A stretch of 63,990 nucleotides of DNA, counting the filler, from an uncultured Gemmatimonadota bacterium (GTDB lineage Bacteria; GCA-2686955): NCBI GenBank assembly GCA_964490075.1. It is 3 parts of 3 records of this genome, joined end to end, with 100 filler letters (N's around TTAATTAATTAA, not from the genome) between each part and the next. Parts side by side here need not be neighbours in the genome. Positions count along the whole stretch, not along the records: positions 1 to 24,040 come from CAZBBK010000077.1; 2 more parts are not named here. One strand, 5' to 3'. How positions within the stretch are numbered: the first letter of the stretch is position 1; the number at the start of each line of letters is the position of its first letter. A program made the position numbers and the translations under genes. Of the stretch, positions 2,800 through 63,988 are shown piece after piece. Below the pieces are notes generated by a model. The model did not search any database and was not told the origin of the DNA. It saw only the letters and a list, made by a program, of their open reading frames with translations.

Positions 2800-4815
2800 C
2801 TAACGGCCTTGTTTTCGAAGGATTTGCGACGCAGCCGCCGGAGCGCGCGCGGCGTCCAGGTGGATCGGCCGGCCGGCGCCGGTGGGGTCCCAGCGGAACA
2901 CGTCGCCCTTGGGGCTGGTGCCGGCCAGGATGCCGCCGTGGGCCAGGGTGACCATGCTGAGGGCCTGGAATGCGCCCGCCAGCTCCCCCTCGCGGTGCCA
3001 GGTCGCGCCCTCGTCGGCGGAGCGCAGCACCACGCCGCCGACGCCGGGTTCGGTGCCGAGCAAGAGCTCCCCCGCTTCGGTCTCGGCCAGGGCGAAGCCG
3101 TGCACGGCGCGCAGCGAGTCGCCGCTGATCTGCTCGAAGTGGATCTCGCCGGGCGTGGTCTGCACCCAGCCCCGGCCCTCGTCGCGCGAGACCCAGACCC
3201 GGGCGCCGTTGGCGTGCACGAAACCGCTCAGCAGCAGGCTGCCGTCGGCCCGCGCCAGGAAGGCCTCGGCGCGCACCCCGCCGCCGCCGATGCCGGCCAC
3301 GAAGGCCTCGTTCCAGGTGATTCCGCCGTCGGTGGAGTAGTTCGGCGAGCCCTCCAGGGCGCCGCAGAGCACGGTCCCGGCCGGGGTCTCGAAGAGGCTC
3401 TTGACGCCGGTCTCCTGGTTCTGGAGGGGACCGGTGGGCAGCCAGGTGGCGCCGTGGTCGAGGGTGGCGTAGACGGCCGGCCCTTGGGAGACACCCGCCA
3501 AGATGGAGCCGTCGGAGAGCTCCAGCAAGGCACGCACGTGGGTCGCCCCCGGAATGTCGGCCGTGGGACTCCAGGTCTCGCCCTCGTCGAAGGAAACGAA
3601 CACATCCCCGTCGGGGTAGGTGCCAAGGAAAAGCGCCCCATCCGACGCCGGCAGCACGGAGAAGGCCGCCCGGGGACCTGGGATCGGGCCACAGCGGCTC
3701 CAGGAGAGGCCTCCGGTCCGCGATCGGAAGAGCGACGCCCGCGGCTCGGTGGCGGCGTAGATCGTGCCCAGGGCGTCGACCGCCAGGTCGTGGACGTGCC
3801 AGGCGTCGGCGAGGTCTCCGAGGCGCAGCCAGCGCTCGGCGGTGTTCGCGGCCTGGAGCGGCGCCGGCAGGGAGTCGAGATGGGCGACCCAGAGATCCTC
3901 CTCGCCGCGGGTGCCGGGCGCCGCCTCCGACGCGGTGTAGATGCGGCGGCCGTCGGCGGAGAGGTAGGGGGTGCAGGCGCGCGCGTCGCGGTTGACCGGC
4001 GGCCCGACGTTTTCGGGAGGACCCCAGACGGTTCCCATCCAGGTGCTCACCCAGAGGTCGGCGTCGCCGTATCCGCCCGGCCGCGGGTCGCCGAAGTCGG
4101 AGAAGAAGAGCAGGTTGCCGTCGCGGGAGATGAAGGGTTTGACCTCGTTGAAGGGGCTGTTGACCGGTCCCGGCACTTCGCGGTGGCCGACCCAGTCGGT
4201 AATCGCGCCGCTCGGCCCGCGATCGGCGACCCAGATGTCGGAGCCGCGGGTGAAGTAGATCTGTAGGCCGTCGCTGGAGAGGCAGGGGGAGGTGCCGTGG
4301 AAGAGGGTGTCGGCGGGGCCGAACTCGCCGCCGATGTCGCGGATCGAGTACCAGATATGGGCCTCGCGCGAGAAGAGCAGGGTGTCCCCCTCGGCGGTGG
4401 TGGTGGGACGCCGGTCGTCGTCCTCGGTGTTGATGTGGGTGCCCAGGTTGATGCTGGTTCCCCAGGTCCGACTCAGGGGGTCCCACTCGGCGCGGTAGAT
4501 GTCCCAGTGGCCCTGGTGGAGCGAGTCGGGTGGGCCGTTCTCGCCGGTCATGCGCACGAAGAAGAGCTCCGATTCGTCGTCGGTCAGCCAGACGTCGCAT
4601 TCGCTGTCGTAGTTGGCGGCCTCCAGGCTGAGCAGCGGGCTGAAGTTGCCCCCCGGATCCCAGAGCTCGGCGGTCGCTTCGCCCGGGGCGGCGCCGGCGG
4701 CGGGTCGGATCACCTCGCCGGGTTGCAGCTTGCAGGCCTGAGCGGCGGGGAGGGTGCAGAAGATGGTCGCGAGCACGAGCGCGGGAAGCGGCCTGGAATC
4801 GGTCGGTGGGCGCAT
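2800..4815 (-). CDS. Secreted two-part beta-propeller protein (PD40-like repeats + BNR/Asp-box repeats)
   Basis: N-half repeats NLGTHINT..P, NVGPPVN..P.LSADG; C-half Asp-boxes SFDEGETW, TLDHGATW, STDGGITW, SADEGATW; hydrophobic leader. Confidence 0.7.
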   Translation of the reverse strand: MRPPTDSRPLPALVLATIFCTLPAAQACKLQPGEVIRPAAGAAPGEATAELWDPGGNFSPLLSLEAANYDSECDVWLTDDESELFFVRMTGENGPPDSLHQGHWDIYRAEWDPLSRTWGTSINLGTHINTEDDDRRPTTTAEGDTLLFSREAHIWYSIRDIGGEFGPADTLFHGTSPCLSSDGLQIYFTRGSDIWVADRGPSGAITDWVGHREVPGPVNSPFNEVKPFISRDGNLLFFSDFGDPRPGGYGDADLWVSTWMGTVWGPPENVGPPVNRDARACTPYLSADGRRIYTASEAAPGTRGEEDLWVAHLDSLPAPLQAANTAERWLRLGDLADAWHVHDLAVDALGTIYAATEPRASLFRSRTGGLSWSRCGPIPGPRAAFSVLPASDGALFLGTYPDGDVFVSFDEGETWSPTADIPGATHVRALLELSDGSILAGVSQGPAVYATLDHGATWLPTGPLQNQETGVKSLFETPAGTVLCGALEGSPNYSTDGGITWNEAFVAGIGGGGVRAEAFLARADGSLLLSGFVHANGARVWVSRDEGRGWVQTTPGEIHFEQISGDSLRAVHGFALAETEAGELLLGTEPGVGGVVLRSADEGATWHREGELAGAFQALSMVTLAHGGILAGTSPKGDVFRWDPTGAGRPIHLDAARAPAAASQILRKQGR

Positions 4816-6737: not shown

Positions 6738-7961
6738 ATGGATCCCGCCCGAATCGCCGGCGCCTTTCTCGACGTCCCCGGTCTGTACCTCCACATCCCC
6801 TTCTGCCGCAGCCTCTGCCCTTTCTGTCCCTACAACAAGGTCAAGTACGACGAGGCGCTGGCCACGGACTATCACGCCGCCCTGCAACAGGAGATCTCCC
6901 GGGCCGTAGAGGCCCTCCCCGGCGAGCTCCACTCGCTCTACGTCGGTGGGGGGACCCCCACCCTCTCGCTGGACGCGCTCGAGGCGGCGGTCGCCGACCT
7001 GCGGGTGAAGCACGAGCGCGCGATCGAGGTGCTCCCCGGCCACGCGACCCCGGCGACCCTGGACCGCCTGCGGGCGATGGGCTTCGACTTCGCGTGCCTC
7101 GGGGTGCAGTCGTTCGACGATGCGGTGCTGCGGCACCTGGGACGGCCGAACACGGCCCGGCAGAACCGCGCGGCGATCAGCAACGCGGTCGGTCGTTTCG
7201 AGTGCGTCGACGTCGACCTGATCTTCGACGTCGGCTACCGCGACGGCGCGGCCCTCCTCGCCGACGTGGAGACCTGTGCGTCGCGGGGTGTGGAGCAGAT
7301 CTCCACCTATCCGCTGATGCGATTCGGCTACACGCCCTTCGGCAAGGCTCCCCACGCCCGGCGCAGGGAGCACGAGCTGCTCGACCAGGCCGAGCGGCTC
7401 GCCGAGCGCTACGGCTACGAGCGCCGCTCGGTGTGGACACTCAACCGCCGGGACGCGCCCACCAGCAGCTCGATCACGCGTGAGTTCTACCTGGGCCTGG
7501 GCGCGGGCAGCGCCTCCTTCACCGGGCGGGAATTCTGGATCAACCACTTCAGCGTGCGTCGCTACATCGACGCCGTCGCGCGCGGCGGGCTCCCGGTGGC
7601 CAAGCAGATGCGCCTCCCCGCGAGCGTCTCGGCCCTCTACTACCTGTTCTGGCGGAGCTACGCGAGTCGCCTGGATCTGCGGCGGCTGGATCAGCTCTTC
7701 GGGGCGCGGGTGGGGCTCGTCACCCGGGCAGCTCTGCTGCTCTTCGTGGGCGCGGGGCTGGTCGAGCGGCGCGGTGATGAGGTCAGGCTGTCGCGACGCG
7801 GCCGGGATCTCTATCACGACGTCGAGCGATGGATGACCTACCACTTCATCGAACCGCTGTGGGCGGACATGATGACCGAGCACGGCGAGGCCCCGGCGAC
7901 TGTCAGGGGCAGACGCGCGGGTCGGCTCTGGGCGCTCACCGAACGTGTCTTGCGAGCATGA
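6738..7961 (+). CDS. HemN/HemW-like radical SAM protein
   Basis: LYLHIPFCRSLCPFC, YVGGGTP, GVQSF, YLGLGAGSAS. Confidence 0.9.
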   Translation: MDPARIAGAFLDVPGLYLHIPFCRSLCPFCPYNKVKYDEALATDYHAALQQEISRAVEALPGELHSLYVGGGTPTLSLDALEAAVADLRVKHERAIEVLPGHATPATLDRLRAMGFDFACLGVQSFDDAVLRHLGRPNTARQNRAAISNAVGRFECVDVDLIFDVGYRDGAALLADVETCASRGVEQISTYPLMRFGYTPFGKAPHARRREHELLDQAERLAERYGYERRSVWTLNRRDAPTSSSITREFYLGLGAGSASFTGREFWINHFSVRRYIDAVARGGLPVAKQMRLPASVSALYYLFWRSYASRLDLRRLDQLFGARVGLVTRAALLLFVGAGLVERRGDEVRLSRRGRDLYHDVERWMTYHFIEPLWADMMTEHGEAPATVRGRRAGRLWALTERVLRA

Positions 7962-9397: not shown

Positions 9398-9470
9398 TTC
9401 TTGGTGGCCCACACCGCGAATACTGTGACGCACCGAGGGCGCGGAGCGTGGGAAACTGGCGACCCGCCCG

Positions 9471-9660
9471 CGCGCGGAGAGGCGCTCGATTTGACACTCC
9501 GCGCACGGAGAAGGACTCGGTTTGACAAATCGATCTCAACTTGACGCAGAAAGCCCTCGAAACCGGCCTTTCTGGGCCATTTGGGACCCTTGGGCCGGGC
9601 AAGCGTCAAACTGAGGTGCTCTCCGTGCGCAAAGTGTCAAACCGAGCGCCTCTCCGCGCG
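9471..9660. repeat. Long imperfect inverted repeat (56-bp arms), MITE/REP-like
   Basis: 9471-9526 pairs with 9605-9660; each arm contains two ctc..tttgac units; lies between convergent genes. Confidence 0.8.
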
Positions 9661-14069: not shown

Positions 14070-14510
14070 TCATCCGGCGTAATCGGCGAGCCGCTCTCTC
14101 AGCGCGGGCCACTGAACGGTGAGCATGCGATCGGCCAGCGGATAGAGGATCCCCTCCTCTTTCACGTTGTGCTGCTGGATCAGCATCAGCAGCGTGTCGC
14201 CCTGATCGAGCACCGAGTCGAAGTCGCCCGCCGCTGCCGCCTCTCCCATCTGATCCAGGAGCCCGCGCATCTGCTGGTGCTCGCCGCGCATCACGGCGGT
14301 GGGCCCGGCATCGACCATCCCCGTCACGCTCTCGATGGCCGGGAAAAGCACCTCCTCCTCCATGGCGTAGTGGCGACGCATCGCCGCATCGAAACGCGAC
14401 CAGTGCTCTTTCGCCTCCTCCCCGCGCCCCGCGTCGGCGGCGGCCTCCAGTGCGGCCCACTGGCTGTCGCAGGCGCGGTGATCCTCGGTGAAGAACTGAG
14501 ATGGATTCAA
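14070..14510 (-). CDS. Hemerythrin/HHE cation-binding domain protein
   Basis: DHR, H..MEEEVLFP, EH..MR, HNVKEEGILYP. Confidence 0.92.
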   Translation of the reverse strand: MNPSQFFTEDHRACDSQWAALEAAADAGRGEEAKEHWSRFDAAMRRHYAMEEEVLFPAIESVTGMVDAGPTAVMRGEHQQMRGLLDQMGEAAAAGDFDSVLDQGDTLLMLIQQHNVKEEGILYPLADRMLTVQWPALRERLADYAG

Positions 14511-14571
14511 GGGTCTGACCTTTCGTTCGAATCGTGGGGACGCGTGGGCGCCGATTCCGCCTCACGCGGAA

Positions 14572-14587
14572 GTTATCATATGATAAC
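14572..14587. promoter_or_regulatory. Perfect 16-bp palindrome GTTATCATATGATAAC, candidate TetR operator
   Basis: AT-rich perfect palindrome in the short divergent spacer between the hemerythrin and TetR genes. Confidence 0.7.
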
Positions 14588-14618
14588 ATGGCGGGCAACG
14601 TCACCGAGGAATCCGAAG

Positions 14619-15692
14619 ATGAGCCGCCGCGAGGAAATCGTCGACACGGTGCTCGGTCTGCTGGCCGACACGCCCCTCGAGAAGATCTCGACGCGTCAGG
14701 TCGCGCGCGCGCTGGGCGTGAGCCAGCCGGCCCTGTTTCGCCATTTCCGCAGCCGCGAGGACCTACTGGTGGCAGTGGTGGCCGCGGCACGGGCGGCGCT
14801 GGCCGCAGAGGCCGAGCAGATCTTGCGCCGCGAGCGATCGGGCTTGGGTCGGCTGCGGGCGCTGGCGCGGGTGATCCTGGAGCACGTGGAGCGCAACCCG
14901 GGGCTGCCGCGGCTGATCTTCGGACGCTCCGCGAGCACCGGCAACCCTCTGGCGACGGCGCTGCGCCACCTGGTCGCTATGCAGCGCGCGGCGGTGCGCG
15001 AGCTCTACCTGCAGGGGCGCCGCGAAGGGAGCTTCGCGGCCGAGGGCTCGCCGGATCGCGCCGCGTCGGTGTTCATCGGCACGATCCAGGGAACCGTGCT
15101 GCAGTGGGAGCTGGCCGGACGTCCGGCCGGTCTGTCGAGCGAGGCCGATCCGCTTTTCGATCTCTGGCTGCACGGCGTGAGCAGCCGCGGAGAACCGGCA
15201 CCGGCGGAGCGGGAGGCGCCCGGGCCCGCGCTCCACGGTCTTCCCCCCCCTCCCGTCCTGCGCGAGCTCGACGTCCGTCCGCTCATCGACCGCGGCGAAG
15301 ACCCCCTCGAGACAATTCTGGCGGCGCTCGACGAGACCCCGCGCGGCAGCGTGCTGTTGATCCGTGCGCCCTTCCGGCCGGCGCCCCTGATCGCGCTCCT
15401 GGAAGAGCGCGGCCACGGTGTCGAAGCCGATCCGGTGGAGGGGAAGGAGTGGGCGGTCGAGGTCGCCATCGGCGATCCCGAGATCGTCGACCTGCGCGAC
15501 CTGGAGGCGCCGGAGCCGCTGGAGCGGGTGCTGGAAGCGGCCTCCGCGATGCGCGCCGAGGAGACCTTCCTGGCGCGGGTGCCGCGCATGCCGCGGGCGC
15601 TGCTGCCGATTCTGGCGGAGCGGGGGATCGATCACCAGGTCATGGATCGGGGCGATCGGGGCGCGCTGGTGCTGCTGAGGGCAGAGCCTTGA
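14619..15692 (+). CDS. TetR-family regulator fused to two DUF2249 (SirA-like) domains
   Basis: TetR HTH STRQVARALGVSQPALFRHF; C-terminal LDVRP..P..IL..PF.P.PL and DLRDLEAPEPLERVL repeats. Confidence 0.85.
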   Translation: MSRREEIVDTVLGLLADTPLEKISTRQVARALGVSQPALFRHFRSREDLLVAVVAAARAALAAEAEQILRRERSGLGRLRALARVILEHVERNPGLPRLIFGRSASTGNPLATALRHLVAMQRAAVRELYLQGRREGSFAAEGSPDRAASVFIGTIQGTVLQWELAGRPAGLSSEADPLFDLWLHGVSSRGEPAPAEREAPGPALHGLPPPPVLRELDVRPLIDRGEDPLETILAALDETPRGSVLLIRAPFRPAPLIALLEERGHGVEADPVEGKEWAVEVAIGDPEIVDLRDLEAPEPLERVLEAASAMRAEETFLARVPRMPRALLPILAERGIDHQVMDRGDRGALVLLRAEP

Positions 15693-16972
15693 TCGGTCCA
15701 GGCGCCGATTCCGGCCTGAGCTTCGAGCAGGCTCCCCCGCTGGCGATCCCGGCCAGTTTCTTCGTGACAGCACCGCTGGCCGTGGCCGCGGCGGGCTTCG
15801 TGTTGCTGGCGCATGGCAACCTGCCCTGGCTCTCTCCCTGGGAGCCGAGCGCCGTGGCCCTGGTCCATTTGGGCACTCTGGGCCTGATCACCATGGTGAT
15901 GTTCGGAGCGCTCTACCAGATTCTGCCGGTGGTCGCCGGGGCCGTAGTGCCAGCGCCGCGCTTGGCCCGCGCGGTGCATGCCGGCTTGACTGTGGGCGCC
16001 GCAGCCCTGGCAGCGGGGATGTTGCTAGGCGAAATCGGCCTGCTGTGGTGCGCGACCTTGCTGCTCGGCGCCACGCTTTTGGCCTTCCTGATCCCCACCG
16101 GCATGGCGCTCGCGCGCGCCCAGACCCGCGACGATACAGTGACCGGGATCAAGGTCGCCTGGGGCGCCCTGGCGCTGGCCGCGGCACTGGGAGTCACCCT
16201 GGCGACACTCTATGCCCTCAAGTGGTCGCCCGACCTGCGCCGCGAGCGGCTGATCTGTCACTGGACGCTGGCGGGAATCGGTTGGATCGGCGGGCTGCTC
16301 AGCGCGGTGTCGTGGCAGGTGATCCCGATGTTCTATCTGACGCCTCCCTGCGCCGCGCGCGTGCGCCGCGCGACGCTCGCCCTGCTGTCGGGGACGATTG
16401 TCGCGACGGTCGCGGTGTTCGCGCTGCGCGTGGCACAGCCCTGGCCGCTGCTGGCCGCGGCTCCGGGCGCGGCGGCAGTCTGGATCATCCACCCCCTCTG
16501 GGCACAGCGCGCCCTGTCGGCGCGACGCCGCAAGCGGGTCGACGACAGCATTCTGTTCTGGCGCCTCGGCCTGGCAGTGGCACCGGCGATGCCGGTGCTG
16601 GCCGCGCTCGCCCATCTCTTGCCCGATCCGCGCCTCTCTGCGCTGGCCGGATGGTGCGGCATCTGGGGCTGGGCGGGCCTGATCATCCACGGCATGATGA
16701 GCCGCATCGTGCCCTTTCTGGTCTGGTTTCATCGTCTGGCGCACCTGGTAGGCAAGCAGCCGACCCCAAGCGCCAAGCAGCTCCTGCCGCGGCATCGGTT
16801 GCGCCTCGCATTCGGGCTGCACGCGGCGACCCTGGCAAGCGGATGTGTCGGGATTCTGCTCGGCGAAGCGGCCATCGCTCGCGTCACCGGCGTATTGCTG
16901 GTGCTGACCGGCGCCGCGATGCTGGCCTGGCTGCTGCCGGTGTTGCGCTTTCGGCTAGCCTCGCTCGCGTAG
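15689..16972 (+). CDS. Polytopic membrane protein of the type found with DUF2249/hemerythrin genes
   Basis: TTGA overlap; GLSFEQAPP, HLGTLG, GALYQILPVVAG, RIVPFLVWFH; about 12 hydrophobic segments. Confidence 0.8.
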   Translation: MIGPGADSGLSFEQAPPLAIPASFFVTAPLAVAAAGFVLLAHGNLPWLSPWEPSAVALVHLGTLGLITMVMFGALYQILPVVAGAVVPAPRLARAVHAGLTVGAAALAAGMLLGEIGLLWCATLLLGATLLAFLIPTGMALARAQTRDDTVTGIKVAWGALALAAALGVTLATLYALKWSPDLRRERLICHWTLAGIGWIGGLLSAVSWQVIPMFYLTPPCAARVRRATLALLSGTIVATVAVFALRVAQPWPLLAAAPGAAAVWIIHPLWAQRALSARRRKRVDDSILFWRLGLAVAPAMPVLAALAHLLPDPRLSALAGWCGIWGWAGLIIHGMMSRIVPFLVWFHRLAHLVGKQPTPSAKQLLPRHRLRLAFGLHAATLASGCVGILLGEAAIARVTGVLLVLTGAAMLAWLLPVLRFRLASLA

Positions 16973-17026
16973 ACACAATCCGCCGCCTGGTTCGTAGCCG
17001 AGCCGCTCCGCGGTCAGCCGCGGCGC

Positions 17027-17296
17027 CTGAGCGCGGTCAGCGGCCGATGCTGGTCGTGCCGCGATCAGCCACGGACACTGAGCAACCTCAGCAACCGATG
17101 CTGGCCACTCCACAGTCATGCAAGGCGCCTGAGCGCGGTCAGCGGCCCATTCCGGTCGCTTCACGGCCGCCCCGGACACCTGACCCGGGTCAGCGAGCAA
17201 TTCCGGTCGCTCCGCGGTCAACCGCGGCGCCTGAGTGAGGTCAGCAAACGTAGCTGGCCGCGCTACGGTCGGACGCGACCGCTGAGCGACGTCAGC
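17027..17296. repeat. Degenerate 51-bp-period array with CTGA-N6-TCAGC cores (6 units)
   Basis: Cores start at 17027, 17078, 17129, 17180, 17231, 17282. Confidence 0.9.
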
Positions 17297-17460
17297 AGCC
17301 GATGCTGGCAGCCGCGCGCTCGTCTCGCGCGCCAACGTGCCCCGCGCCGCGCTGGCAAGGCGCGACGACGAGTCACAGCCGGAGGCTACGGCGAAGCGGA
17401 GCAACAGCGAGCGACTCCGGGCACGCACCAACCGCAACCGGCACCTCGGTCAAAGCACCG

Positions 17461-17544
17461 CGCCGATTCGGCTGCGAGCGACTCCAAGTCGCTCGCCAGC
17501 CGCAATCGGCGCCCTGATGGCGACCAAAGGCCCGCCATCAGGGC
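17461..17544. other. Two adjacent strong hairpins
   Basis: 17461-17511: 23-bp stem with two bulged C and a CCA loop; 17511-17544: 12-bp stem GCCCTGATGGCG/CGCCATCAGGGC. Confidence 0.65.
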
Positions 17545-17604
17545 TCTTGACTGCCGAAGCGACGCGACCTATCACGTCCTCACCAACACATCGTGAGGTC
17601 GATC

Positions 17605-19629
17605 ATGCTCCTGCCGAGACGGCATCCGCCGCTGCCCGCGATCGCAATTCTGGCACTGATCCAGGCGTCGAGCACCCCGGCCCTGAATCTCGAGCGACTC
17701 TCCGCCACGCGCCTCAGCGTGACCTTCGAGCTGCTCGATGTCGAGCACCACGAGGGGGTGCTGGCGATCCCCGGCGGCCTGGGCGGCACGGCGGTGATCG
17801 ATGTCACCGACCCGCGGCAGCCGGTCGAGCTCAGTCGCTACAGCGACACTCTCTGTCTCTACGGCCGCCTCTACAACACCTTTATCGGACCCGAGCTCAC
17901 CCTGGGCGCCGGCCGCAACTGCCCGCTGGTCCTTCTCGAGCCCGGTCCGGGCTATCACCTCGACGTGGTCGGTCGCCACCAAACAGGAGACGCTTCGTAT
18001 GAGGACGCCGCCGTGCGCGACGACCTGGCGGCGATCGCCGCCCACGACGGGGGACTGGAGCTGATCGATATCAGCGATCCCGGAGCCACGTTTACGGTGG
18101 CGACGGTTCCGCTGACCAATGCCTGGGCGGTGCGCATCGACGGCGACCACGCCTACGTGGCCGACGGCGGCGGCGGCCTGGCGGTGGTCGACATCTCCGA
18201 TCCCTACCAGGCCTTCCTGGCTGGACGCCTGGTCACCAGCGGCGCGGCCAAAGATGTGCGGGTGCGCAACGGTCTGGCCTTTCTCGCGTTGGGAGATGCG
18301 GGAGTGGCCATGATCGACGTCTCCACTCCGAGTCAGCCGGTGCTGGCGGCCGAGTACAACACCACCGGCAACGCCTCGCATCTCGGAGCCAGCGACAGTC
18401 TGGTGGCAGTCGCCGACTGGGACGACGTGGAGATCCTGCGCTACGACCACCAGGGCATGCTGGAGCTAACCGGCAGCAAGAAGACCGGCGGCCGGGTGAT
18501 GGGCGTCGAGATCGTGAACGACGTGGTGTACGTGGCCGAGTGGAGTGAGCTTCACATTTACAGCTACGGCCCCATCGCCGGACCTGATCTCGACCTCGAC
18601 TTGGTCGACATCAACTTCCCGAAGACCGAGGTGGGCGCCAGCCGCGACACTACGATCCAGCTGAGCAACAGTGGCGGTTCCACGCTGACCATCGAGTCGA
18701 TCGACATCCCGCACGCCGACTTGGCGCTCGACCCCGCCGGGCCCTTCAGCATCATGGCGGGCGGTTCCAGAGACCTCACCATCACCTACACCGCCAGCGA
18801 GGACGAGATCGACATCCGCTGGTTCACGATTCACTCGAACGACACCGATGATTCGGCCTTTCAGTTCTCCGTGCAAGGCAACAGCCGCGATCTGAACGTC
18901 GGAGATCCGGCTCCAGACTTCACCATTCCGGTGCTGGACGGCGCACCGGTGACACTTTCCGAGCTGCGCGGCAGCGTGGTGGTGCTGACCTTCTTCGCCT
19001 CGTGGTGACCGGTCTGCGGTCCGCAGTTGGTGGACATCGAGAACGGGCTCTGGGAGACCTACCGCGATCAGGGACTGCTGGTCTATGGCGCCAATCGCGA
19101 GAGCGAGCCGATTCTGCGCGACTTCATCGACCAGACCGGCATCACTTTCCCGGTGCTGCTCGACGAGCCGGCCGGCTACTACCTGCTGGGCGGCCTTTCT
19201 CCCTATCCGCGCGACTTCATCATCGACGCCGATGGAATCGTGCAATATGCGGACACGGAGTACCGTCCGACCGAGATGTCGGCGATCATCGAGCGTTTGC
19301 TGCCCACCGCGGTCGAGGACGATGGGGTGGCGGCGGACGCGCCCCCCGCGACACGCCCGGTGCTCGCTCAAAACCTCCCCAACCCCTTCAACCCCAGCAC
19401 CACCATCCGCTTCGACCTGCCGGCGGACGGGCCCGCCGAGCTGACGATCTTCGACATCGGCGGGCGGCGGGTGCGCACCTTGGTCGCGGACAACCTCCCT
19501 GCCGGCTCCCACGCCCGGCGCTGGGACGGACGCGACGAACGCGGCGCGGAGCTGCCCTCGGGCATCTACCTCTACCGGCTGCGATCCGGGGGTATCGAAG
19601 CGCTTCGCAGGATGGTTCTGCTGCGCTGA
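17605..19629 (+). CDS. Probable selenoprotein: LVIVD repeats + Ig-like domain + TlpA/AhpC-type redoxin (UxxC) + FlgD-like C-terminal domain
   Basis: ORFs 17593-19008 and 19027-19629 share a frame; read-through of TGA 19006-19008 gives [20 protein letters not shown]-terminus [28 protein letters not shown]. Confidence 0.88.
19008..19031 (+). promoter_or_regulatory. Candidate bacterial SECIS hairpin
   Basis: ACCGG-(bulged T)-CTGCG-GTC-CGCAG-TTGGT directly 3' of the TGA; the loop is closer to the UGA than usual. Confidence 0.45.
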
Positions 19630-53598: not shown

Positions 53599-54603
53599 CT
53601 ACAGAAAGAGCGCCAGGCGGCCCACCATCTCGGCGACCCGCATCGAGTAGCCCCACTCGTTGTCGTACCAACCGATCACCTTGACCAGGGTGCCGTCGAT
53701 TACGTCGGTGGACGCGGCGTCGAAGATGCAGGAGTGGGGATCGCCCACCACGTCGCTGGAGACGATCGGATCCTCGGTGTAGGCCAGAATCCCGGCCAGC
53801 GGCCCCTCGGCCGCGGCCTTCATGGCGCCGTTGATCGCCTCTATGGTGGCCGGGCGCGCCAGCTTCGCGGTCAGGTCGGTGAGCGAGCCATCCGGCACCG
53901 GCACCCGCACCGCCATCCCGTTCAGCTTGCCCTCCAGATCGGGGATGATCTTGCCCACCGCGCGGGCCGCCCCGGTGGTGGTGGGGATCAGGTTGATCGC
54001 CGCCGAGCGCGCGCGGCGCAGGTCGGAGTGCGGCAGATCGAGGATCCGCTGGTCGTTGGTGTAGCCGTGGATGGTGGTCATCAACCCGGCGCTGATGCCG
54101 AAGGTGTCGTTCAGGACCTTGGCCATCGGTGACAGGCAGTTGGTGGTGCAGGAGGCGTTGGAGACGATGTCCTGGTCGGCGCGCAGCGTGTCGTCGTTGA
54201 CCCCCAGGACCACCATGTTGTCGATTGCGTCCTTCGCCGGCACGGTCAGGACGACCTTCTTGGCGCCGGCGTCGATGTGCGTCTGGAGCTGCGCCCGTTT
54301 GCGGAAGATCCCGGTCGACTCGACGACGATATCGACGCCGAGATCGCGCCACGGCAGCTCGTTGGGGCTGCGCTCCGAAAGGACCTTGAGCGGCTTGCCC
54401 TCGACCCGGATCGAGTCCCCCTCGGCGGCCACCTCGCCGTCGAATCGGCCGTGCACCGAGTCGTACTTGAGCAGATGGGCGAGGGTCGGGGCGTCGGTGA
54501 GGTCGTTGACCGCGACGACCTCGGCTCCGTCGACCTGGCGAAGGGCGCGGTAGACGAGCCGGCCGATGCGACCGAAACCGTTGATGGCAACGCGATAGGA
54601 CAT
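53599..54603 (-). CDS. gap: Glyceraldehyde-3-phosphate dehydrogenase
   Basis: INGFGRIGR, SNASCTTNCL, WYDNEWGYS. Confidence 0.99.
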   Translation of the reverse strand: MSYRVAINGFGRIGRLVYRALRQVDGAEVVAVNDLTDAPTLAHLLKYDSVHGRFDGEVAAEGDSIRVEGKPLKVLSERSPNELPWRDLGVDIVVESTGIFRKRAQLQTHIDAGAKKVVLTVPAKDAIDNMVVLGVNDDTLRADQDIVSNASCTTNCLSPMAKVLNDTFGISAGLMTTIHGYTNDQRILDLPHSDLRRARSAAINLIPTTTGAARAVGKIIPDLEGKLNGMAVRVPVPDGSLTDLTAKLARPATIEAINGAMKAAAEGPLAGILAYTEDPIVSSDVVGDPHSCIFDAASTDVIDGTLVKVIGWYDNEWGYSMRVAEMVGRLALFL

Positions 54604-54723: not shown

Positions 54724-54929
54724 CTGGCGTTTCGATATAGCGCGTCTTCACGCGGAAAGCGCCCGGAACGCCTCCCATCGAGCCCCTGCCCATGCCCATG
54801 CCCATGCCCGATTCGGGCAACGGAGTCGGGCAGGGGCAGGGGCGAGGGCATGGGCACGGGCACGCGAAGAAGCGCGGTCGAGAGCGCTCCCCCAGCCGCG
54901 GATGGAGCCCCGGAGGCCGGCGGACTCCC
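54724..54929. repeat. Second, rearranged copy of the 50095-50334 repeat family
   Basis: CTGGCGTTTCGATATAGCG end motif; core in inverted orientation with expanded GCCCAT/GGGCAN hexamers. Confidence 0.7.
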
Positions 54930-55155
54930 ACCGGCCCCGACACAAAAGGCCAGCTCCGGGCCCGGAACCGCGAGTCATGACACCTTTTCGCGACACACCT
55001 CACCACTCTCGATCGGAGTCGCGTGTTACCACCGGATTCCGGCCCTGATGCGACGACGCCGGAACGGGGCGGGCGCCCGAGGACACCGGACATCCAGGGC
55101 GGACCGCGTGGGTGGCGGGCGAACGAGTGGAGTGCAAGGCGGTCATTCCGCGCAC

Positions 55156-55272
55156 TTGACCCGCCTCAGAAAGGGATGTGGGTCTCTGCGCGGTCGGGCC
55201 GGGAGTCTGAGATTGCTCAGGCGGGGTTCGTGGCCGCTTTTCCGTCGATTCGCGCGCCTGAGACTGCTCAGC
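55156..55272. repeat. Second 51-bp-period array of (C/T)TGA-N6-TCAG cores (3 units)
   Basis: Cores at 55156, 55207, 55258. Confidence 0.8.
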
Positions 55273-55523
55273 CCGCAATCGGCGCTCTTCGCCCGAATGT
55301 CGGTCCCACCCGCGCTCTTTGCCAGCGGATGGGAGAGCGGCAGCCGTCGCTGGGGTTTTAGGCGCCGGCGCGGGAGCGGGATCCAGGGTCGGGGGGAGCG
55401 GCGGCGGGCCGGGCGCCCTGCCGCGGGATCTTCCCAAGAGCCGGGGGCGATGCCGCGCGCTCTGCCGGAATCGGCCGAGGTCTGTTCCCCCCCTCCTCTT
55501 CAACAGGTCCTGGAGAACGAGGC

Positions 55524-56375
55524 TCAGGCCCGCGCGCCGTGCACTTCGCTCTGCGCGATGGTCACCGCTCCGGCCAGCTCGGCGCCTGCCCGGCGCAGGG
55601 CTTGCGCGGCCGCCGCGAGGGTGGCACCGGTGGTGATCACGTCGTCGACCAGGAGCACGCGCTCTCGCGGCAGCTCGGCGACCGCCTCGAAGGCATCGGC
55701 GACGTTGGTCCAGCGCCGCTCGCGATCGAAATGGGTCTGGCTGCGGGTGGCGCGGCGGCGCCGCAGTAGCTCGCGCGGGGGCGGCAGGCGGTGGCCGGCG
55801 GCATAGCCACGGGCGATCAACGAGCTCTGGTTGTAGCCACGCTCCCTACGGCGGGCGATGTGCAGCGGGATCGGCACCACGCAGGTGACCCCGTCGGTCA
55901 CCAGGCGTGCCGCGCGCTCGGCCGCCGCCGCGTCGTCTCGCCCCGACTCGGCGCGCAGGGCGTGGCCGGTGACGATTGCCGCCAGCTCCCGCCCCAGGCG
56001 CTGGCCGAGGGGCTCCAGGCGGCGGTATTTCAGCTCCTGGATCAGCGCCGCGAGGGGGCCCTCGTAGGGGTAGGCGGAGAGCACCACGAGGGTCGAGCTC
56101 TGACCATCTGGGGGGGCGAAGTCGACCCACTCGGCGCCGTCCAGGGTCGGGTCGGGGGCGATCGGCACCGCCAGCGGCGGCGGCGCGGGATCGGGAGGGC
56201 TCAGACAGGCGGCGCAGGCCAGGGGCGACTGGTGGCTGGCGGCCGCGCCGCAGCCGGCGCAGACCGGCGGCGCCAGCAGATCGAGCAGGGTGAGGAAGGA
56301 CTGGCGCAGCAATGCCGCTCCGAGGCGCGGAGCGGGGCGCGAGGGCAGGTGGCGGAGGAGGGTCGGGAAGGGCAT
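55524..56375 (-). CDS. comF: ComF family protein (zinc ribbon + PRTase-like)
   Basis: CAGC..CAAC, LKY, VPIPLH..R.RERGYNQS, LLVDDVITTGATL. Confidence 0.92.
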   Translation of the reverse strand: MPFPTLLRHLPSRPAPRLGAALLRQSFLTLLDLLAPPVCAGCGAAASHQSPLACAACLSPPDPAPPPLAVPIAPDPTLDGAEWVDFAPPDGQSSTLVVLSAYPYEGPLAALIQELKYRRLEPLGQRLGRELAAIVTGHALRAESGRDDAAAAERAARLVTDGVTCVVPIPLHIARRRERGYNQSSLIARGYAAGHRLPPPRELLRRRRATRSQTHFDRERRWTNVADAFEAVAELPRERVLLVDDVITTGATLAAAAQALRRAGAELAGAVTIAQSEVHGARA

Positions 56376-61092: not shown

Positions 61093-62865
61093 TCAGCGAA
61101 GCCAGTCGCCGTTGCGGGAAGGGCACTGGCGATGCGCTGGCGTTTCGACATAAGGGTTCGCGCTCCCGGGTCCAATCCCGCGCGACGAGCCGCTATGTCG
61201 AAACACCAGCGATGCGGGCGGGGAGCGTGGCGGCGATCGCGGTCTGAGCAGCCTCAGGCGCGCGCCATCCGTCCCAAGCACTCTACCCCTACAGAGAACC
61301 ACCCCACGCAGCCCGACCCCAGAGCCCAGAGCCCAGAGCCCAAAGCCCAAAGCCTCGGCCGAAGGCCGATCCTCCTCGGCCGAAGGCCGCTCCTCCGGCA
61401 CCTCCACCACCCGCCCCGGCAGCACCTCGATCTCGATCTCCTCCACCACCTCGCCGGCGCTCAGGCGCAGGAGATACGAGCCGGGAAAGGAGTCGTCGGG
61501 GACGGTGAACTCCAGGGTGCCCTCCCAGGAGCCGCGGGCGCGCACCGGGCGTTTGCCGCGGCGGGCGATGAGGATCGGCTCGGGGTTGTCGGCGGGGCCG
61601 AAGGCGAGATCGAGGTCGATACTGCGGGGGTGGTCTTCGAGGTTGGAGGCCAGCACGTGGAACTCGATGGAGGTGCCGGCGAGGACAGCGCTGCGGCGCG
61701 GGACGACGTAGAGCAGCTCGGTCGCGCGCCGATCGAAGGGGTAGGGGCCGAGATCGAGGCGGGTGCCGTCGGGATCGCGGATGCCGAGCGGCGGGGATGG
61801 GTCGCCGGCGTCGATGGCGGGGGAGCCGGGGCGGAGCTGGAAGCCGCCCTGGGCGGGGTCGAAGAAGAGGGGGTCGGCGTGGAGGTCGTGGGTGGTGTCG
61901 GGCGGCCAGCCCTCGTGATCGATTCCCTCGTTGTCGAAGAAGAGGTTGTGGGTCGCCTGGAGGGGACCGAGCAGATGCACGACCCCGGCCCCCCGGTTGC
62001 GCACGAAGAGGTTGTTGCTGATGGTCACGCCGTTGAGTGGCCAGTCCGCATAGATCGCTCCGCCCCAGCCGCCCTTCTTGCCAGGATTCCAGCGCTCGTG
62101 GCCCTCGGCCGCGACGGCCGTGTTGTTCAGGAAGACGTTGTTCAGGATGCGGGTGTCGGTATCCATGTGGAAGCCGTAGACGTAGATCGCGGCGCCCTTG
62201 TTGGAGAAGTTGCCCTCGAACCAGTTGCCGCGGATGCGGCTGTTGCCCGTGATGCCGAGGGCACCGCCCTCGGCGGCCGCCAGGGGACGGAAGGCGTGGC
62301 CGTTGTTGATGAAGACGCAGTTCTCGATGAACGGGTCTTCGGGGGTGCTGTTCAGAGTGATGACGGCGCCCGAGAATCTGCTATCTTCGAGTGTCAGGTC
62401 ATACCCCGAGTGGTTCAGCCCCGCCGACCATCCAGGGAAGGCGTATCCTGACCCGGCCAGACGCCAACCGCTCACGACGACGTCTCTGACCGTCACACTA
62501 GAGAAGCTGGAACCGATTCCACGGCCATCCAGGGGGCACAACGTGAATCCTTGAATCAGATTTCCTGAGTCGGAGTGCACAACGTAGAACAGATTCGTCT
62601 GCTCCGGGACACCTTTGACCATTGTCTCATTGCTTCCGCCCAATCCAATGACCGATATGCCTTTTTCCTCCCACGCCACGCTCTCTTTGTAGGTGCCAGC
62701 CGCAACCAAAACACTGTCGCCGTCAACCGCGACATCCACGGCCTCTTGAATCGTATCGAACTCGGAGCAGGGACCGACGTAGAGCGTCGCCGCCCGGGCC
62801 ACGGCGGGCGTGATCTGGGCGACGAGCAGGGTCAGGGTGAGCGTTGATTTACATAGTGTACGCAT
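61093..62865 (-). CDS. Secreted right-handed beta-helix protein with C-terminal Ig-like domain
   Basis: Signal peptide; TIQEAVDVAVDGDSVLVAAGTY; GGAI repeats; ADPLF...SPAIDAGDP..DLGPY; last ~90 codons run through repeats and are doubtful. Confidence 0.8.
   Translation of the reverse strand: MRTLCKSTLTLTLLVAQITPAVARAATLYVGPCSEFDTIQEAVDVAVDGDSVLVAAGTYKESVAWEEKGISVIGLGGSNETMVKGVPEQTNLFYVVHSDSGNLIQGFTLCPLDGRGIGSSFSSVTVRDVVVSGWRLAGSGYAFPGWSAGLNHSGYDLTLEDSRFSGAVITLNSTPEDPFIENCVFINNGHAFRPLAAAEGGALGITGNSRIRGNWFEGNFSNKGAAIYVYGFHMDTDTRILNNVFLNNTAVAAEGHERWNPGKKGGWGGAIYADWPLNGVTISNNLFVRNRGAGVVHLLGPLQATHNLFFDNEGIDHEGWPPDTTHDLHADPLFFDPAQGGFQLRPGSPAIDAGDPSPPLGIRDPDGTRLDLGPYPFDRRATELLYVVPRRSAVLAGTSIEFHVLASNLEDHPRSIDLDLAFGPADNPEPILIARRGKRPVRARGSWEGTLEFTVPDDSFPGSYLLRLSAGEVVEEIEIEVLPGRVVEVPEERPSAEEDRPSAEALGFGLWALGSGVGLRGVVLCRGRVLGTDGARLRLLRPRSPPRSPPASLVFRHSGSSRGIGPGSANPYVETPAHRQCPSRNGDWLR
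61136..61210. repeat. Short inverted-repeat element of the 50095 family
   Basis: GCTGGCGTTTCGACATA ... TATGTCGAAACACCAGC, 16/17 complementary. Confidence 0.75.
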
Positions 62866-62871
62866 GACTTG

Positions 62872-63988
62872 CTACGGAGCTCCGCCGAGATCGAGTGGAT
62901 CGCAGGTGCCACCGAACCAGCCGGTGGTCAGTCCGGTGCGCGCCCGCTGGGCGGCGCAATTGATGCTGCCGGCCGCTGTGGCCAACTCCGTGTAGGTCTG
63001 CGCGGCGCCGACATAGGCGGGGTGCCTGGGATTCCAGAAGCCCCAGTTCTGGGTGAGCTTCGTGTATCTCCCACTCGGCACATCTCCGAGGGGCAAGTTC
63101 CTGGAGGCCGACGCGAACTCGTGATCGATGGCGTTGTACCAGAAGAGCCCGGCGATGAAGTGGTGCTGGCCCTGCCCCGGCGCCGAAGCCTTGGCCTGCA
63201 CCATCCCGGTCATGAAGTCGGTGTAGGCTGTTCCACGGGCCTCGTGACCGGTGATCACCTCGGGGTAGTGGTAATCCGGGTGCCTTGGATCGTTACACTC
63301 GCCGCCGCAGTTCGGGTTGGGAATCCAGAGCGGCTCTTCTCCCGACATACAGCATTCATAGCCCATCCACTGATCGGCATGATACGAGAACTCGGTGATC
63401 ATGAAGGGACGGGCCAGATCCTCGGCGACCAGGCTCTGGTAGACGTGCTTGAGCTGGTTGGCGGCTTCCTCGGTCGTTCCATGCTCCACGTAGAGGTTGA
63501 AGCAGAGGACATCGGAGTAGTGCGCCGCGATGCCCGCGATGTCGGGGCTGTAGGGGATCTGGAACTTGCCGAACCAGGCGAAGCGGTCGGAGAGGATGGC
63601 GTGTGGCGATTCGCTGTCGAACGCCACGATCGCCTGTCTCATGGTCGAGTAGAACTGGATGGCCAGCTTCTTCATGAAGTACTCGCCGTCGCTCTCTTCG
63701 AGGTAGCGGCCCAGGTCGAACTGCACGATCTCGCCTTCTTCGCCGTAGAGGGCGCCATAATCGACATCGGACGGGGTCTCAAACACCCGCCCTTCGTCCC
63801 AGCCGCACTGTGGTGGGGTCCTGCGCCACGTAGAAGCGATCGGTCGCCGTGAACTCAGCGAACGCGGGCATGGCGTACAAGAAAAGAGCCCCGAAAAGGG
63901 GCTTGACGACGCGCTCGAAGCTCAGGCACGTCTTAGGCGAACGGCGAACGGCGAACGGCGAACGGCGAACGGCGAGTGCTGCTCTCAT
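62872..63988 (-). pseudogene. Glycoside hydrolase (clan GH-A, beta-agarase-like), apparently internally deleted or frameshifted
   Basis: Signal peptide + TATDRFYV in one frame; C-terminal barrel half (AI..D..PHAILSDRF, DVLCFNLY, RPFMITEF) in another. Confidence 0.55.
63936..63975. repeat. Heptamer tandem repeat (GGCGAAC)5+
   Basis: Seen directly; a similar (CCCARAG)5 run lies at 61318-61354. Confidence 0.9.

What the first reader, a model, noticed from the sequence alone, without database searches (positions are those of the whole stretch)
16976..17296. Cryptic 51-bp-period array of CTGA-N6-TCAG palindromes
Seen: six cores CTGA-N6-TCAGC start at exactly 17027, 17078, 17129, 17180, 17231 and 17282. 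The N6 varies (GCGCGG, GCAACC, GCGCGG, CCCGGG, GTGAGG, GCGACG). The 36-bp linkers are only partly conserved, yet there is no indel. A minus-strand ORF (16955-17437) crosses the array, but the invariant bases include T at two wobble positions (GCT-GAN-NNN-NNT-CAG), which is unexpected for protein-level selection in a high-GC genome. Inference: constraint acts on DNA or RNA. Options are phased binding sites (51 bp is close to 5 helical turns) for a dimeric protein or recombinase, or a transcribed array processed into small RNAs (CUGA is the box D motif, which invites comparison with Nop-domain guide arrays). No cognate protein gene is evident nearby and I do not recognise the element.
Basis: partly seen in the sequence, partly recalled or inferred. 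Interest (0 to 1): 0.85.

Follow-up and report, generated by a model that had tools for sequence, protein, structure and literature searches.

The report
Intergenic 51-bp palindrome repeat array
Six non-coding 51-base repeats, each carrying the same short palindrome, sit just after a gene's stop codon; they look like a new family of the repeated palindromic spacer DNA long known in bacteria, and their function is not shown.

Summary
Six 51-bp units (16997-17302) each carry CTGA-N6-TCAGC in exact register. The motif occurs 10 times in the window against 0.87 expected.

It is not a coding repeat. Unit-to-unit differences fall evenly on the three codon phases (90/91/82). GC by phase is not gene-like. 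The minus-strand ORF has no Pfam hit and no homologue.

It is a small dispersed family. A second array lies at 55126-55278. Contigs from the same marine metagenomes hold further related copies.

Arrays built the same way occur in one unrelated MAG (Ust_8). There, 13 of 18 neighbouring cores are 51 bp apart, and all five arrays start within 35 nt of a stop codon. One follows the homologue of the gene that precedes ours.

Nothing supports RNA structure, an Rfam family, a box C/D guide array or CRISPR. The motif alone shows no general 51-bp spacing peak in metagenomes.

My best reading is a REP/BIME-like extragenic palindromic tandem repeat whose core is a protein recognition site. Function is not shown. 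The scan had not noted this sequence on other DNA.

The parts
16997..17302 (.). Array 1: six head-to-tail 51-bp units in exact register, with a 102-bp super-period (odd units resemble odd units)
   Evidence: TRF; register print; identity matrix; model R1 scores 46-49 bits per unit (these are training sequences)
17027..17041 (.). Core 1, CTGA-GCGCGG-TCAG-C
17078..17092 (.). Core 2, CTGA-GCAACC-TCAG-C
17129..17143 (.). Core 3, CTGA-GCGCGG-TCAG-C
17180..17194 (.). Core 4, CTGA-CCCGGG-TCAG-C
17231..17245 (.). Core 5, CTGA-GTGAGG-TCAG-C
17282..17296 (.). Core 6, CTGA-GCGACG-TCAG-C
17009..17024 (.). Second, weaker palindrome of the unit (CCGCGG-N4-CCGCGG in units 1 and 5; reduced to GGYC-N7-GRYC in the family alignment), about 25 nt from the core
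   Evidence: Folds: -14 kcal/mol in units 1 and 5, weak or absent in units 2-4. Alifold. No covariation beyond shuffles
15770..16972 (+). Upstream gene: about 400-aa membrane protein with no Pfam or NCBIfam model. It is the last gene of a conserved cluster of hemerythrin (14136-14507, minus strand), a TetR-DUF2249 fusion (about 14610-15692) and this membrane protein. Stop codon TAG at 16970-16972, about 25 nt before the array. The start coordinate is approximate
17303..17545 (+). Rest of the spacer: three long hairpins (about 17318-17373, 17462-17509, 17510-17545), far more structured than shuffles
   Evidence: z -5.4, 0 of 200 shuffles as good. Short variant contigs on 17344-17405 and 17471-17539 suggest these pieces are also repeated elsewhere
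55126..55278 (.). Array 2: three diverged units in the same register and orientation. Cores at 55156 (TTGA variant), 55207 and 55258. It lies in the 920-bp spacer between comF-like (55524-56375, minus strand) and gap (53599-54603, minus strand)
   Evidence: nhmmer with the array-1 profile: E 0.047, 2.2 and 9.4 for the three units, in register
61244..61257 (.). Single CTGA-N6-TCAG site. Probably chance: about one is expected per window, and model R1 gives only 15.2 bits, E 0.18

Best explanation
This is a non-coding, lineage-specific extragenic palindromic tandem repeat. It is the same kind of thing as REP clusters/BIMEs, SMAG clusters, NIMEs and MIRUs, but a sequence family of its own. The unit is 51 bp and holds two short palindromes about 25 nt apart: an invariant one (CTGA-N6-TCAGC) and a weaker one. 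Arrays sit in spacers directly after stop codons. They occur at several places in the genome, in either orientation relative to the flanking genes. Inferred steps follow. Arrays grow and shrink by gain or loss of whole 51-bp or 102-bp units through slippage or unequal recombination, and blocks of units are copied to new spacers. The half-sites stay invariant while the 6-nt spacer and the linkers drift, because the core is read as sequence by a dimeric protein. That protein could be either the enzyme that spreads the element or a host DNA-binding protein. Simple hairpin stability does not explain the invariance. The strict unit length is kept because units are added whole and, possibly, because neighbouring bound dimers must keep their phase. 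Shown: the element is real, non-coding, dispersed, next to stop codons, and has a conserved core. Not shown: transcription, any bound protein, mobility, or any effect on neighbouring genes.
For: Non-coding: differences by codon phase are 90/91/82, and GC by phase is .676/.657/.784 against .65-.72/.44-.54/.85-.93 in three genes of the window. There is no Pfam hit for either open frame across the array. The 160-aa ORF has no homologue among about 5.8 billion clustered proteins of 88-280 aa.

Dispersed family: there is a second array at 55126-55278. In run X1 the array bins reach depths of 23-59, against 12 on the flank. A 1,497-nt contig of similar depth (10.6) matches 17127-17245 with 16 differences. 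None of its differences listed in table 3 falls in the CTGA or TCAG letters of the three cores it spans. A further contig shows a 42-nt step back plus 9 nt, which equals one extra 51-bp unit.

Sequence-specific core: 9 of 9 core columns are invariant against 8 of 42 others. In 5 of 6 units the core hairpin folds no better than shuffles, and in units 4 and 5 the minimum-energy fold does not form it. There are no compensatory changes.

Gene-end placement: array 1 starts about 25 nt after a TAG stop. In Ust_8 all 5 of 5 arrays begin within 35 nt of the stop of a gene-like frame.

Same architecture elsewhere: in Ust_8, 13 of 18 neighbouring cores are 51 bp apart when 31-61 bp is allowed, and the control pattern gives 0. 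The Arabian10_MAG_46 array is the best outside match to the array-1 profile (E 8.5e-5).

Labile in evolution: among 28 other homologues of the upstream gene that have downstream sequence, 0 carry a core or a comparable tandem repeat. This includes L153, the nearest relative of the Ust_8 gene in the tree.

Known kind: published REPs lie mainly downstream of coding regions and are often reiterated in tandem, and some have stems of only 5 bp (PMC3733652, abstract and passages).
Against: No transposase, recombinase or binding protein was identified, and the whole genome is not held. Copy number, a cognate gene and mobility are therefore untested. The palindrome has 4-5-bp arms, shorter than classical REPs, and it lacks their GTAG or CGTC tag at a fixed unit position. 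Copy number looks low: two arrays in 64 kb, and five arrays in the 8-Mb Ust_8 genome. Units within one array are 43-71% identical outside the core without a single indel. Simple neutral decay of a selfish repeat does not predict that, so some constraint on spacing is present that I cannot explain. The arrays in this window and in Ust_8 both follow homologues of the same membrane-protein gene. My rough estimate puts the chance of this near 0.001-0.003, and a purely selfish element does not explain it. Similarity of the linkers across genomes is not secure: an unrelated coding repeat (L008) scored z 4.8 in the same test where Arabian10 scored 5.4-7.0 and Ust_8 1.4-3.4.
Confidence: 0.55

Rival explanations
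1. Phased operator or scaffold array. The six cores are host binding sites for one dimeric DNA-binding protein. Being 51 bp apart (about five helical turns), the bound dimers line up and build a higher-order complex, for instance a roadblock at the operon end, a decoy array or a centromere-like site.
For: The 4-5-bp half-sites are invariant, lie one helical turn apart and have a free 6-bp spacer. There are no indels despite 29-57% divergence of the non-core columns. The core is not explained by hairpin energy. The same 51-bp spacing is kept in Ust_8. The arrays follow the same hemerythrin/DUF2249/membrane-protein cluster in two distant organisms, and in this window that cluster encodes a TetR-type DNA-binding domain.
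Against: No single sites occur elsewhere. With one mismatch allowed the window holds 24 matches against 22.95 expected, and none lies near the TetR gene's own promoter region. Arrays also lie at unrelated loci: the comF/gap spacer here, and after a peptidase-like gene and a regulator gene in Ust_8. Of 28 other copies of the same gene cluster, 0 have an array. The Ust_8 DUF2249 protein shows no TetR domain in Pfam. No match was found in plasmid records.
Confidence: 0.2
2. RNA element. The array is transcribed, either as the 3' untranslated tail of the upstream operon or from its own promoter. Its hairpins then protect the mRNA end, or the array is cut into unit-length small RNAs.
For: The array lies directly after a stop codon, and the scan predicts no terminator before it. 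The plus strand of 16973-17330 folds better than shuffles (z -3.2), unlike the minus strand (z -0.9). The family alignment allows G-U pairs on the plus strand only. Published REPs are thought to act partly as RNA (PMC3733652 abstract).
Against: Covariation does not exceed shuffles: the score is reached by 62 of 500 shuffles and percent paired by 145 of 500. The core helix has only 4 pairs and is no better than shuffles in 5 of 6 units. The better-folding strand matches the upstream gene's strand in only 3 of 7 arrays. There is no Rfam match at E up to 10 within the array. No box C motif is present.
Confidence: 0.12
3. Coding repeat. Either the minus-strand ORF 16955-17437 encodes a 17-aa repeat protein, or the upstream gene's TAG is read through into the plus-strand frame, which stays open from 16973 to a TGA at 17594-17596.
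For: The period is a multiple of three and there are no indels. The frame in phase with the upstream gene is open for 207 codons and ends in a GTGA overlap with a possible start of the next gene. Two Ust_8 arrays (L016, L173) are also open in the same core phase after a TAG.
Against: No codon phase shows excess differences, and GC2 is too high. The T-ending codons at invariant positions are unlike this genome's usage. The ORF has no homologue and no Pfam hit. The plus-strand frame has no ATG, GTG or TTG, since no ORF is listed in that frame. TAG is an ordinary stop here: 11 of 36 gene-like frames end in it. Two other Ust_8 arrays (L007, L143) are closed within 4-7 codons, and Ust_8 spacings of 46, 47 and 52 bp break any frame. 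Open runs of this length are not rare at 69% GC.
Confidence: 0.03
4. Plain minisatellite: a neutral tandem duplication with no constraint, the palindrome being a leftover of the founding unit.
For: The 102-bp super-period and unit-gain variants point to ordinary slippage or unequal recombination. The motif is found in tandem repeats of every period in metagenomes.
Against: Nine of 9 core columns are invariant against 8 of 42 others. The same core is kept in the second array and in the paralogous contig. There are no indels.
Confidence: 0.08

Closest known systems
REP elements and their tandem clusters (BIME-type clusters; GTAG- and CGTC-tagged REP super-families, Di Nocera et al. 2013, PMC3733652)
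   Same: Both are short palindromic units in spacers, mainly downstream of coding regions, often reiterated in tandem together with linker DNA. Both are species-specific families found in scattered phyla, and some REPs have stems as short as 5 bp (abstract and passages).
   Different: There is no GTAG or CGTC tag at a fixed place in the unit. The palindrome has 4-5-bp arms and an invariant sequence, rather than being a GC-rich 20-40-bp stem-loop. Copy number seems low and no single units were seen. The 51-bp period is strict. No RAYT-type gene was looked for, because no genome is held.
MIRUs of mycobacteria
   Same: Both are tandem intergenic units of roughly 50 bp in a high-GC genome, lying between co-oriented genes. 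Here an open frame runs through the spacer and ends 4 nt into a possible start codon of the next gene. MIRUs are described as mobile, with an internal ORF coupled to the downstream gene at -4 nt (PMC12548453, one passage).
   Different: The open frame here has no start codon and no coding signature. The arrays abut stop codons rather than start codons. In Ust_8 two of the arrays are closed in that frame. Sequence relatedness to MIRUs was not tested.
SMAG clusters of Stenotrophomonas and NIME/dRS3 arrays of Neisseria
   Same: SMAG-type repeats occur as single units or as head-to-tail clusters whose unit number varies between strains (PMC2613905, abstract seen in the listing). NIMEs, recalled from memory and not checked here, are arrays in which a short inverted repeat with a free spacer alternates with partly conserved linker units after genes. 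That layout is the closest match to this array.
   Different: These are different sequences in different hosts. SMAGs belong to the GTAG-tagged group. NIME linkers vary in length, whereas here the period is fixed.
Centromere-like and operator arrays (plasmid partition sites made of tandem units that each hold an inverted repeat; recalled from memory, not checked here)
   Same: Both have exactly phased tandem units, each with a short inverted repeat read by a dimeric protein.
   Different: This array is chromosomal, occurs at several unrelated spacers, has no partition gene nearby and has no match in plasmid or phage records.

Membership tests
Tagged REP super-families (GTAG / CGTC) | Unpaired GTAG or CGTC motif at one end of the stem-loop (PMC3733652 abstract) | tested here: not met
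   In 16973-17592, GTAG occurs twice, CTAC twice, CGTC three times and GACG five times. None recurs at a fixed position in the six units.
Tagged REP super-families (GTAG / CGTC) | Palindromic unit of 20-40 bp, present in high copy number | tested here: not met
   The conserved palindrome is 14-16 bp with 4-5-bp arms. There are two arrays and no single units in 64 kb, and five arrays in the 8-Mb Ust_8 genome. The organism's own whole genome is not held.
Tagged REP super-families (GTAG / CGTC) | Located mainly downstream of coding regions, often reiterated in tandem | tested here: met
   Array 1 starts about 25 nt after a TAG stop. In Ust_8, 5 of 5 arrays start within 35 nt of a stop codon.
Tagged REP super-families (GTAG / CGTC) | Associated RAYT (Y1 transposase) gene in the genome | not tested
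   No genome is held for the window, and I did not search Ust_8 for it.
MIRU-type intercistronic repeat | ORF inside the repeat, coupled to the downstream gene at -4 nt (PMC12548453 passage) | tested here: inconclusive
   A frame is open from 16973 to 17596 and ends in GTGA at a possible GTG start. It has no ATG, GTG or TTG and no coding signature. An ATG 12 nt further on, with a GAGG before it, is the likelier start (read).
CRISPR array | Repeats of 24-48 bp separated by unrelated spacers of regular size (PMC3733652 background passage) | tested here: not met
   The invariant part is 15 bp. The 36-bp linkers are related to one another, with 43-71% identity over non-core columns.
Box C/D guide RNA array | Box C together with box D (CUGA) in each unit (feature recalled from memory) | tested here: not met
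   There are 0 matches to the box C pattern in 16973-17592 and no Rfam family at E up to 10 within the array.
Coding 17-residue repeat | Excess of differences and high GC at one codon phase; homologous proteins exist | tested here: not met
   Differences by phase are 90/91/82 and GC by phase is .676/.657/.784. No Pfam hit and no homologue.
Structured RNA family | Base pairs kept through compensatory changes | tested here: not met
   Thirteen units and 8 pairs were tested. The covariation score is reached by 62 of 500 shuffles, and 3 of the 4 core pairs never vary.

The most novel reading that the evidence does not exclude
The 51-nt unit with two palindromes is a functional module shared across distant marine high-GC bacteria: this Gemmatimonadota-like MAG, Ust_8 and Arabian10_MAG_46. 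It is placed at gene ends and read by an unknown sequence-specific dimeric protein that needs the 51-bp phase. Under this reading it is a new class of phased post-stop-codon array, tied in two lineages to the hemerythrin/DUF2249/membrane-protein cluster, and not a selfish repeat.
Probability: 0.12. Interest if true: 0.7.

Novelty: new member of a known kind. Interest (0 to 1): 0.3.

Why it matters
Extragenic palindromic repeats are common, but they are characterised mainly in Proteobacteria and mycobacteria. This is a clean example from an uncultured marine lineage, with an unusually sharp signature: an invariant 4-N6-5 palindrome, a strict 51-bp phase, and placement next to stop codons. A look-alike exists in a distant MAG after the homologous gene. 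If a binding or mobilising protein were found, the array would give a tractable case of how such arrays are built and why their spacing is kept. In practical terms, the array breaks short-read assemblies, and gene callers should not annotate its open frames as proteins.

Tried and rejected
- Expression: no RNA holder is listed. The 4 runs that hold the stretch are DNA runs of one study, so expression could not be examined.
- Rfam: only two chance-level matches at E 6.7 and 9.3, both outside the array.
- Promoter and terminator scan of 16700-17750: 0 promoters and 0 terminators.
- Own genome: not held, so there is no genome-wide spacing histogram for this organism.
- Genome-collection scan at fixed 51-bp spacing: 18 loci in 15 genomes. 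Most are coding repeats or 17-bp repeats. Two Paenibacillus arrays share the layout of two hairpins in a 51-bp unit, but their linkers show no similarity to ours (z about 0).
- Cross-genome linker test: rejected as proof of homology, because unrelated controls (L008, L009) also scored z 3-5.
- Second hit of model R1 in Arabian10_MAG_46, near its gap gene (E 0.2): it lies inside a coding region.
- TetR-operator idea: no site near the regulator's own gene.
- TAG preference: the stop-adjacent arrays follow TAG in 5 of 6 cases (4 of 5 in Ust_8, plus array 1 here). TAG ends 36 of 83 gene-like frames in Ust_8 and 11 of 36 here. This is a post-hoc P of about 0.01 and I leave it as a note.
- Shared descent of gene plus array: rejected. 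The two membrane proteins are not sisters in the tree, and 0 of 28 other homologues have an array.
- Taxonomy from GAPDH: uninformative, at 55-69% identity to many genomes.
- Plasmid and phage records: no match.
- Literature: three searches gave no description of this repeat. Supplementary files were not open, and the repeat-family tables of PMC3733652 might list similar untagged families.
- SECIS-like fold after the in-frame TGA of the neighbouring gene: no signal (z 0.23).

Full report
**What is there.** Window 16997-17302 holds six head-to-tail 51-bp units. Tandem Repeats Finder reports 17004-17308, period 51, 6.0 copies, 65% matches and score 202. It also reports a 102-bp super-period with 72% matches. 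Printed in 51-base register the units need no gap. The motif occurs 10 times in the window against 0.87 expected, and 0 of 100 dinucleotide shuffles reach 10. The nine core columns are invariant in all six units, whereas only 8 of the 42 other columns are. At that rate the chance is about 3e-7, or about 1e-5 after allowing for placement. Outside the core the units are 43-71% identical, and odd-numbered units resemble one another most.

**Setting.** The array begins about 25 nt after the TAG stop (16970-16972) of a plus-strand gene. That gene encodes a membrane protein of about 400 aa with no Pfam or NCBIfam model. It is the last gene of a cluster made of a hemerythrin gene (14136-14507, minus strand; Pfam E 1.5e-21), a TetR-DUF2249 fusion and this membrane protein. 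After the array the spacer continues to the next plus-strand gene (17593 onward) with three long hairpins. That stretch is far more structured than shuffles (z -5.4). The pattern scan finds no promoter or terminator in 16700-17750. Earlier notes of this scan place the organism in an uncultured marine, probably Gemmatimonadota-like, bacterium. I did not verify that, and GAPDH identities were uninformative.

**Not coding.** Differences between units fall evenly on the three codon phases (90, 91, 82). GC by phase is .676/.657/.784 in the array, against .65-.72/.44-.54/.85-.93 in three genes of the window. No strand or frame shows the third-position excess a diverged coding repeat should have. The minus-strand ORF 16955-17437 and the plus-strand frame 16973-17595 have no Pfam match. 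The ORF has no homologue among about 5.8 billion clustered proteins of 88-280 aa. The plus-strand frame that continues the upstream gene after its TAG is open for 207 codons and ends in a GTGA overlap with a possible GTG start of the next gene. However, it has no ATG, GTG or TTG. TAG is an ordinary stop codon here, ending 11 of 36 gene-like frames. Open runs of this length are not rare at 69% GC. In Ust_8, two arrays are open after a TAG in the same core phase, two are closed within 4-7 codons, and spacings of 46, 47 and 52 bp occur. Read-through or coupling is therefore unlikely.

**A small dispersed family.** A second array with the same spacing and orientation lies at 55126-55278. Its cores are at 55156 (one mismatch), 55207 and 55258. 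It sits in the 920-bp spacer between a comF-like gene and gap, both on the minus strand. A profile of the six units finds these three units as the best non-self hits, in register, though each is weak alone (E 0.047, 2.2, 9.4). A covariance model finds nothing else convincing in the window; the next best hit is 17.8 bits, E 0.044. With one mismatch allowed, the motif is no commoner than chance outside the arrays (24 found, 22.95 expected). So there are no scattered single sites.

Four DNA runs of one marine study hold the region. Their contigs break inside the array, and depth there rises to 23-59 against 12 on the flank in run X1. A 1,497-nt contig of similar depth (10.6) matches 17127-17245 with 16 differences. 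None of the differences listed for it touches the half-sites of the three cores it spans. Another contig shows a step back of 42 nt plus 9 inserted letters, which equals one extra 51-bp unit. These are contigs of one study, possibly the source sample, so they show presence and variation but are not independent confirmation.

**Relatives elsewhere.** A scan of one genome per species (185,579 species) for three cores at 51-bp spacing gave 18 loci in 15 genomes. Most are coding repeats or 17-bp repeats. The interesting hits are three loci of the MAG titled 'Proteobacteria bacterium Ust_8' and one of 'Planctomycetota bacterium Arabian10_MAG_46'. Both MAGs have about 70% GC.

In Ust_8, a scan that allowed any spacing from 31 to 61 bp found 18 neighbouring core pairs on five contigs, against 0 for the control pattern. 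Thirteen are 51 bp apart; the rest are at 52 (two), 46, 47 and 35 bp. There the unit has a strong second hairpin about 25 nt from the core, so the array is a chain of two alternating palindromes. All five arrays begin within 35 nt of the stop codon of a gene-like frame (four TAG, one TGA), in either orientation.

The Arabian10 array is the best outside match to the array-1 profile (E 8.5e-5). That genome holds no second array detectable with model R1.

I could not prove common descent of the families. In a linker-only scoring test, Arabian10 scored z 5.4-7.0 and Ust_8 z 1.4-3.4, but an unrelated coding repeat scored 4.8.

A metagenome scan that allowed periods of 36-66 bp returned the motif inside tandem repeats of every period. 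The motif alone is therefore not diagnostic. The family is defined by the motif together with the unit.

**An unexplained coincidence.** The homologue of the upstream membrane protein in Ust_8 (43% identity) is itself followed, 20 nt after its TAG, by one of that genome's five arrays. The whole cluster of hemerythrin, DUF2249 protein and membrane protein is conserved. It is widespread: 57 of 301 sampled genomes of that phylum have the membrane protein. Among the 28 other fetched homologues with downstream sequence, none has a core or a comparable repeat. In a FastTree tree the two array-bearing genes are not sisters, and the nearest relative of the Ust_8 gene (L153) has a short spacer without an array. 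The arrays were therefore gained separately or lost often. With five arrays among roughly 7,000 genes, and three or four genes tested, my rough estimate of the chance of this is 0.001-0.003. I leave it unexplained.

**DNA or RNA?** Nothing points to RNA structure as the selected trait. On 13 units from three arrays, the covariation score is reached by 62 of 500 shuffles and percent paired by 145 of 500, and 3 of the 4 core pairs never vary. The core hairpin folds no better than shuffles in 5 of 6 units, and in units 4 and 5 the minimum-energy fold does not form it. The better-folding strand coincides with the upstream gene's strand in only 3 of 7 arrays. There is no Rfam match within the array and no box C motif. 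Invariant half-sites one helical turn apart, with a free spacer, are what a sequence-reading dimeric protein would leave. But no protein is identified, no single sites exist, and there is no site at the TetR gene's own promoter region.

**Comparison with known kinds.** Published REPs are short palindromes found mainly downstream of coding regions. They are often reiterated in tandem with linker DNA, are species-specific, are scattered over phyla, and some have 5-bp stems (PMC3733652, abstract and passages). The present element shares the placement and the tandem habit. It fails the GTAG/CGTC tag test, has a shorter palindrome of fixed sequence, and appears to be low-copy.

MIRUs are described as mobile units whose internal ORF is coupled at -4 nt to the next gene (PMC12548453, one passage). 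The open frame here mimics that at its 3' end but has no start codon and no coding signature.

It is not a CRISPR array, because the linkers are related to each other. It has no match in plasmid or phage records. Three literature searches found no description of it. Supplementary tables could not be opened.

**Verdict.** This is a real, non-coding, stop-codon-adjacent tandem array of a 51-bp unit with two palindromes. It belongs to a small dispersed family, and a look-alike family exists in at least one distant marine MAG. I file it as a new member of the known kind 'extragenic palindromic tandem repeats'. I think its core is most likely a protein recognition site, with a probability of 0.55 for the overall reading. 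A dedicated phased operator array (0.2) and an RNA role (0.12) remain open. Interest is moderate to low at 0.3. The strict phase and the repeated association with one gene cluster are the points worth following up.

Noticed in passing
window 17593-19629 (+), TGA at 19006-19008: The gene after the array has an in-frame TGA exactly at the first cysteine position of its redoxin W-C-x-x-C motif. With TGA read as U, the sequence is FFASW-U-PVCG. The frame then stays open for 206 more codons, through the redoxin domain and a T9SS-type C-terminal tail. This is a candidate secreted selenoprotein built of LVIVD repeats, an Ig-like domain and a UxxC redoxin. A 60-nt fold after the TGA showed no special hairpin (z 0.23).
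   Followed up: partly
window 14136-16972: A conserved cluster of hemerythrin (minus strand), a TetR-DUF2249 fusion and a 400-aa membrane protein with no Pfam or NCBIfam model. The membrane protein is found in 57 of 301 sampled genomes of the phylum of G001. The neighbours are kept in nearly all 30 fetched loci. Function is unknown.
   Followed up: partly
window 17303-17545: Three long GC-rich hairpins fill the rest of the spacer (z -5.4). Short variant contigs on 17344-17405 and 17471-17539 in the metagenome runs suggest these pieces are also repeated elsewhere. The last hairpin is bounded by CTGA and TCAG with a 20-nt insert.
   Followed up: partly
window 54779-54858: A long inverted repeat built from hexamer runs (GCCCAT x4.7 facing GGGCAG x5.8), with 36-nt arms that are 81% complementary. 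It lies in the gap-comF spacer, upstream of gap.
   Followed up: no
window 61310-61396 and 63936-63975: Heptamer repeats (AGCCCAG x6.6; GGCGAAC x5.7, perfect) and a 21-bp repeat x2.1. The first group lies at the 3' end of the open frame 61093-62865 (minus strand).
   Followed up: no
window 9468-9527 and 9601-9660: Two 31-bp tandem pairs about 130 bp apart. I did not examine them.
   Followed up: no
L005 (Paenibacillus psychroresistens chromosome) 3964-4524; L001 (P. nanensis) 7089-7598: Long 51-bp arrays (11 or more units shown) whose unit also holds two hairpins: a 7-bp stem and CTGA-N6-TCAGC. In L005 the loop of the first hairpin flips between TTTC and GAAA from unit to unit. The linkers show no similarity to this window's.
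   Followed up: partly
G005 (MAG Chloroflexota B19T1B8), e.g. L017 3799-3950: GCTGA-N6-TCAGC occurs 98 times against 5 for the control pattern, mostly as one near-constant 16-mer, singly or in close pairs. This looks like a high-copy REP-like family.
   Followed up: no
L016, L007, L143, L173 (Ust_8) and window 16970: Of the six arrays that abut a stop codon, five follow TAG. TAG ends 36 of 83 gene-like frames in Ust_8 and 11 of 36 in the window. This is a post-hoc P of about 0.01 and is unexplained.
   Followed up: partly
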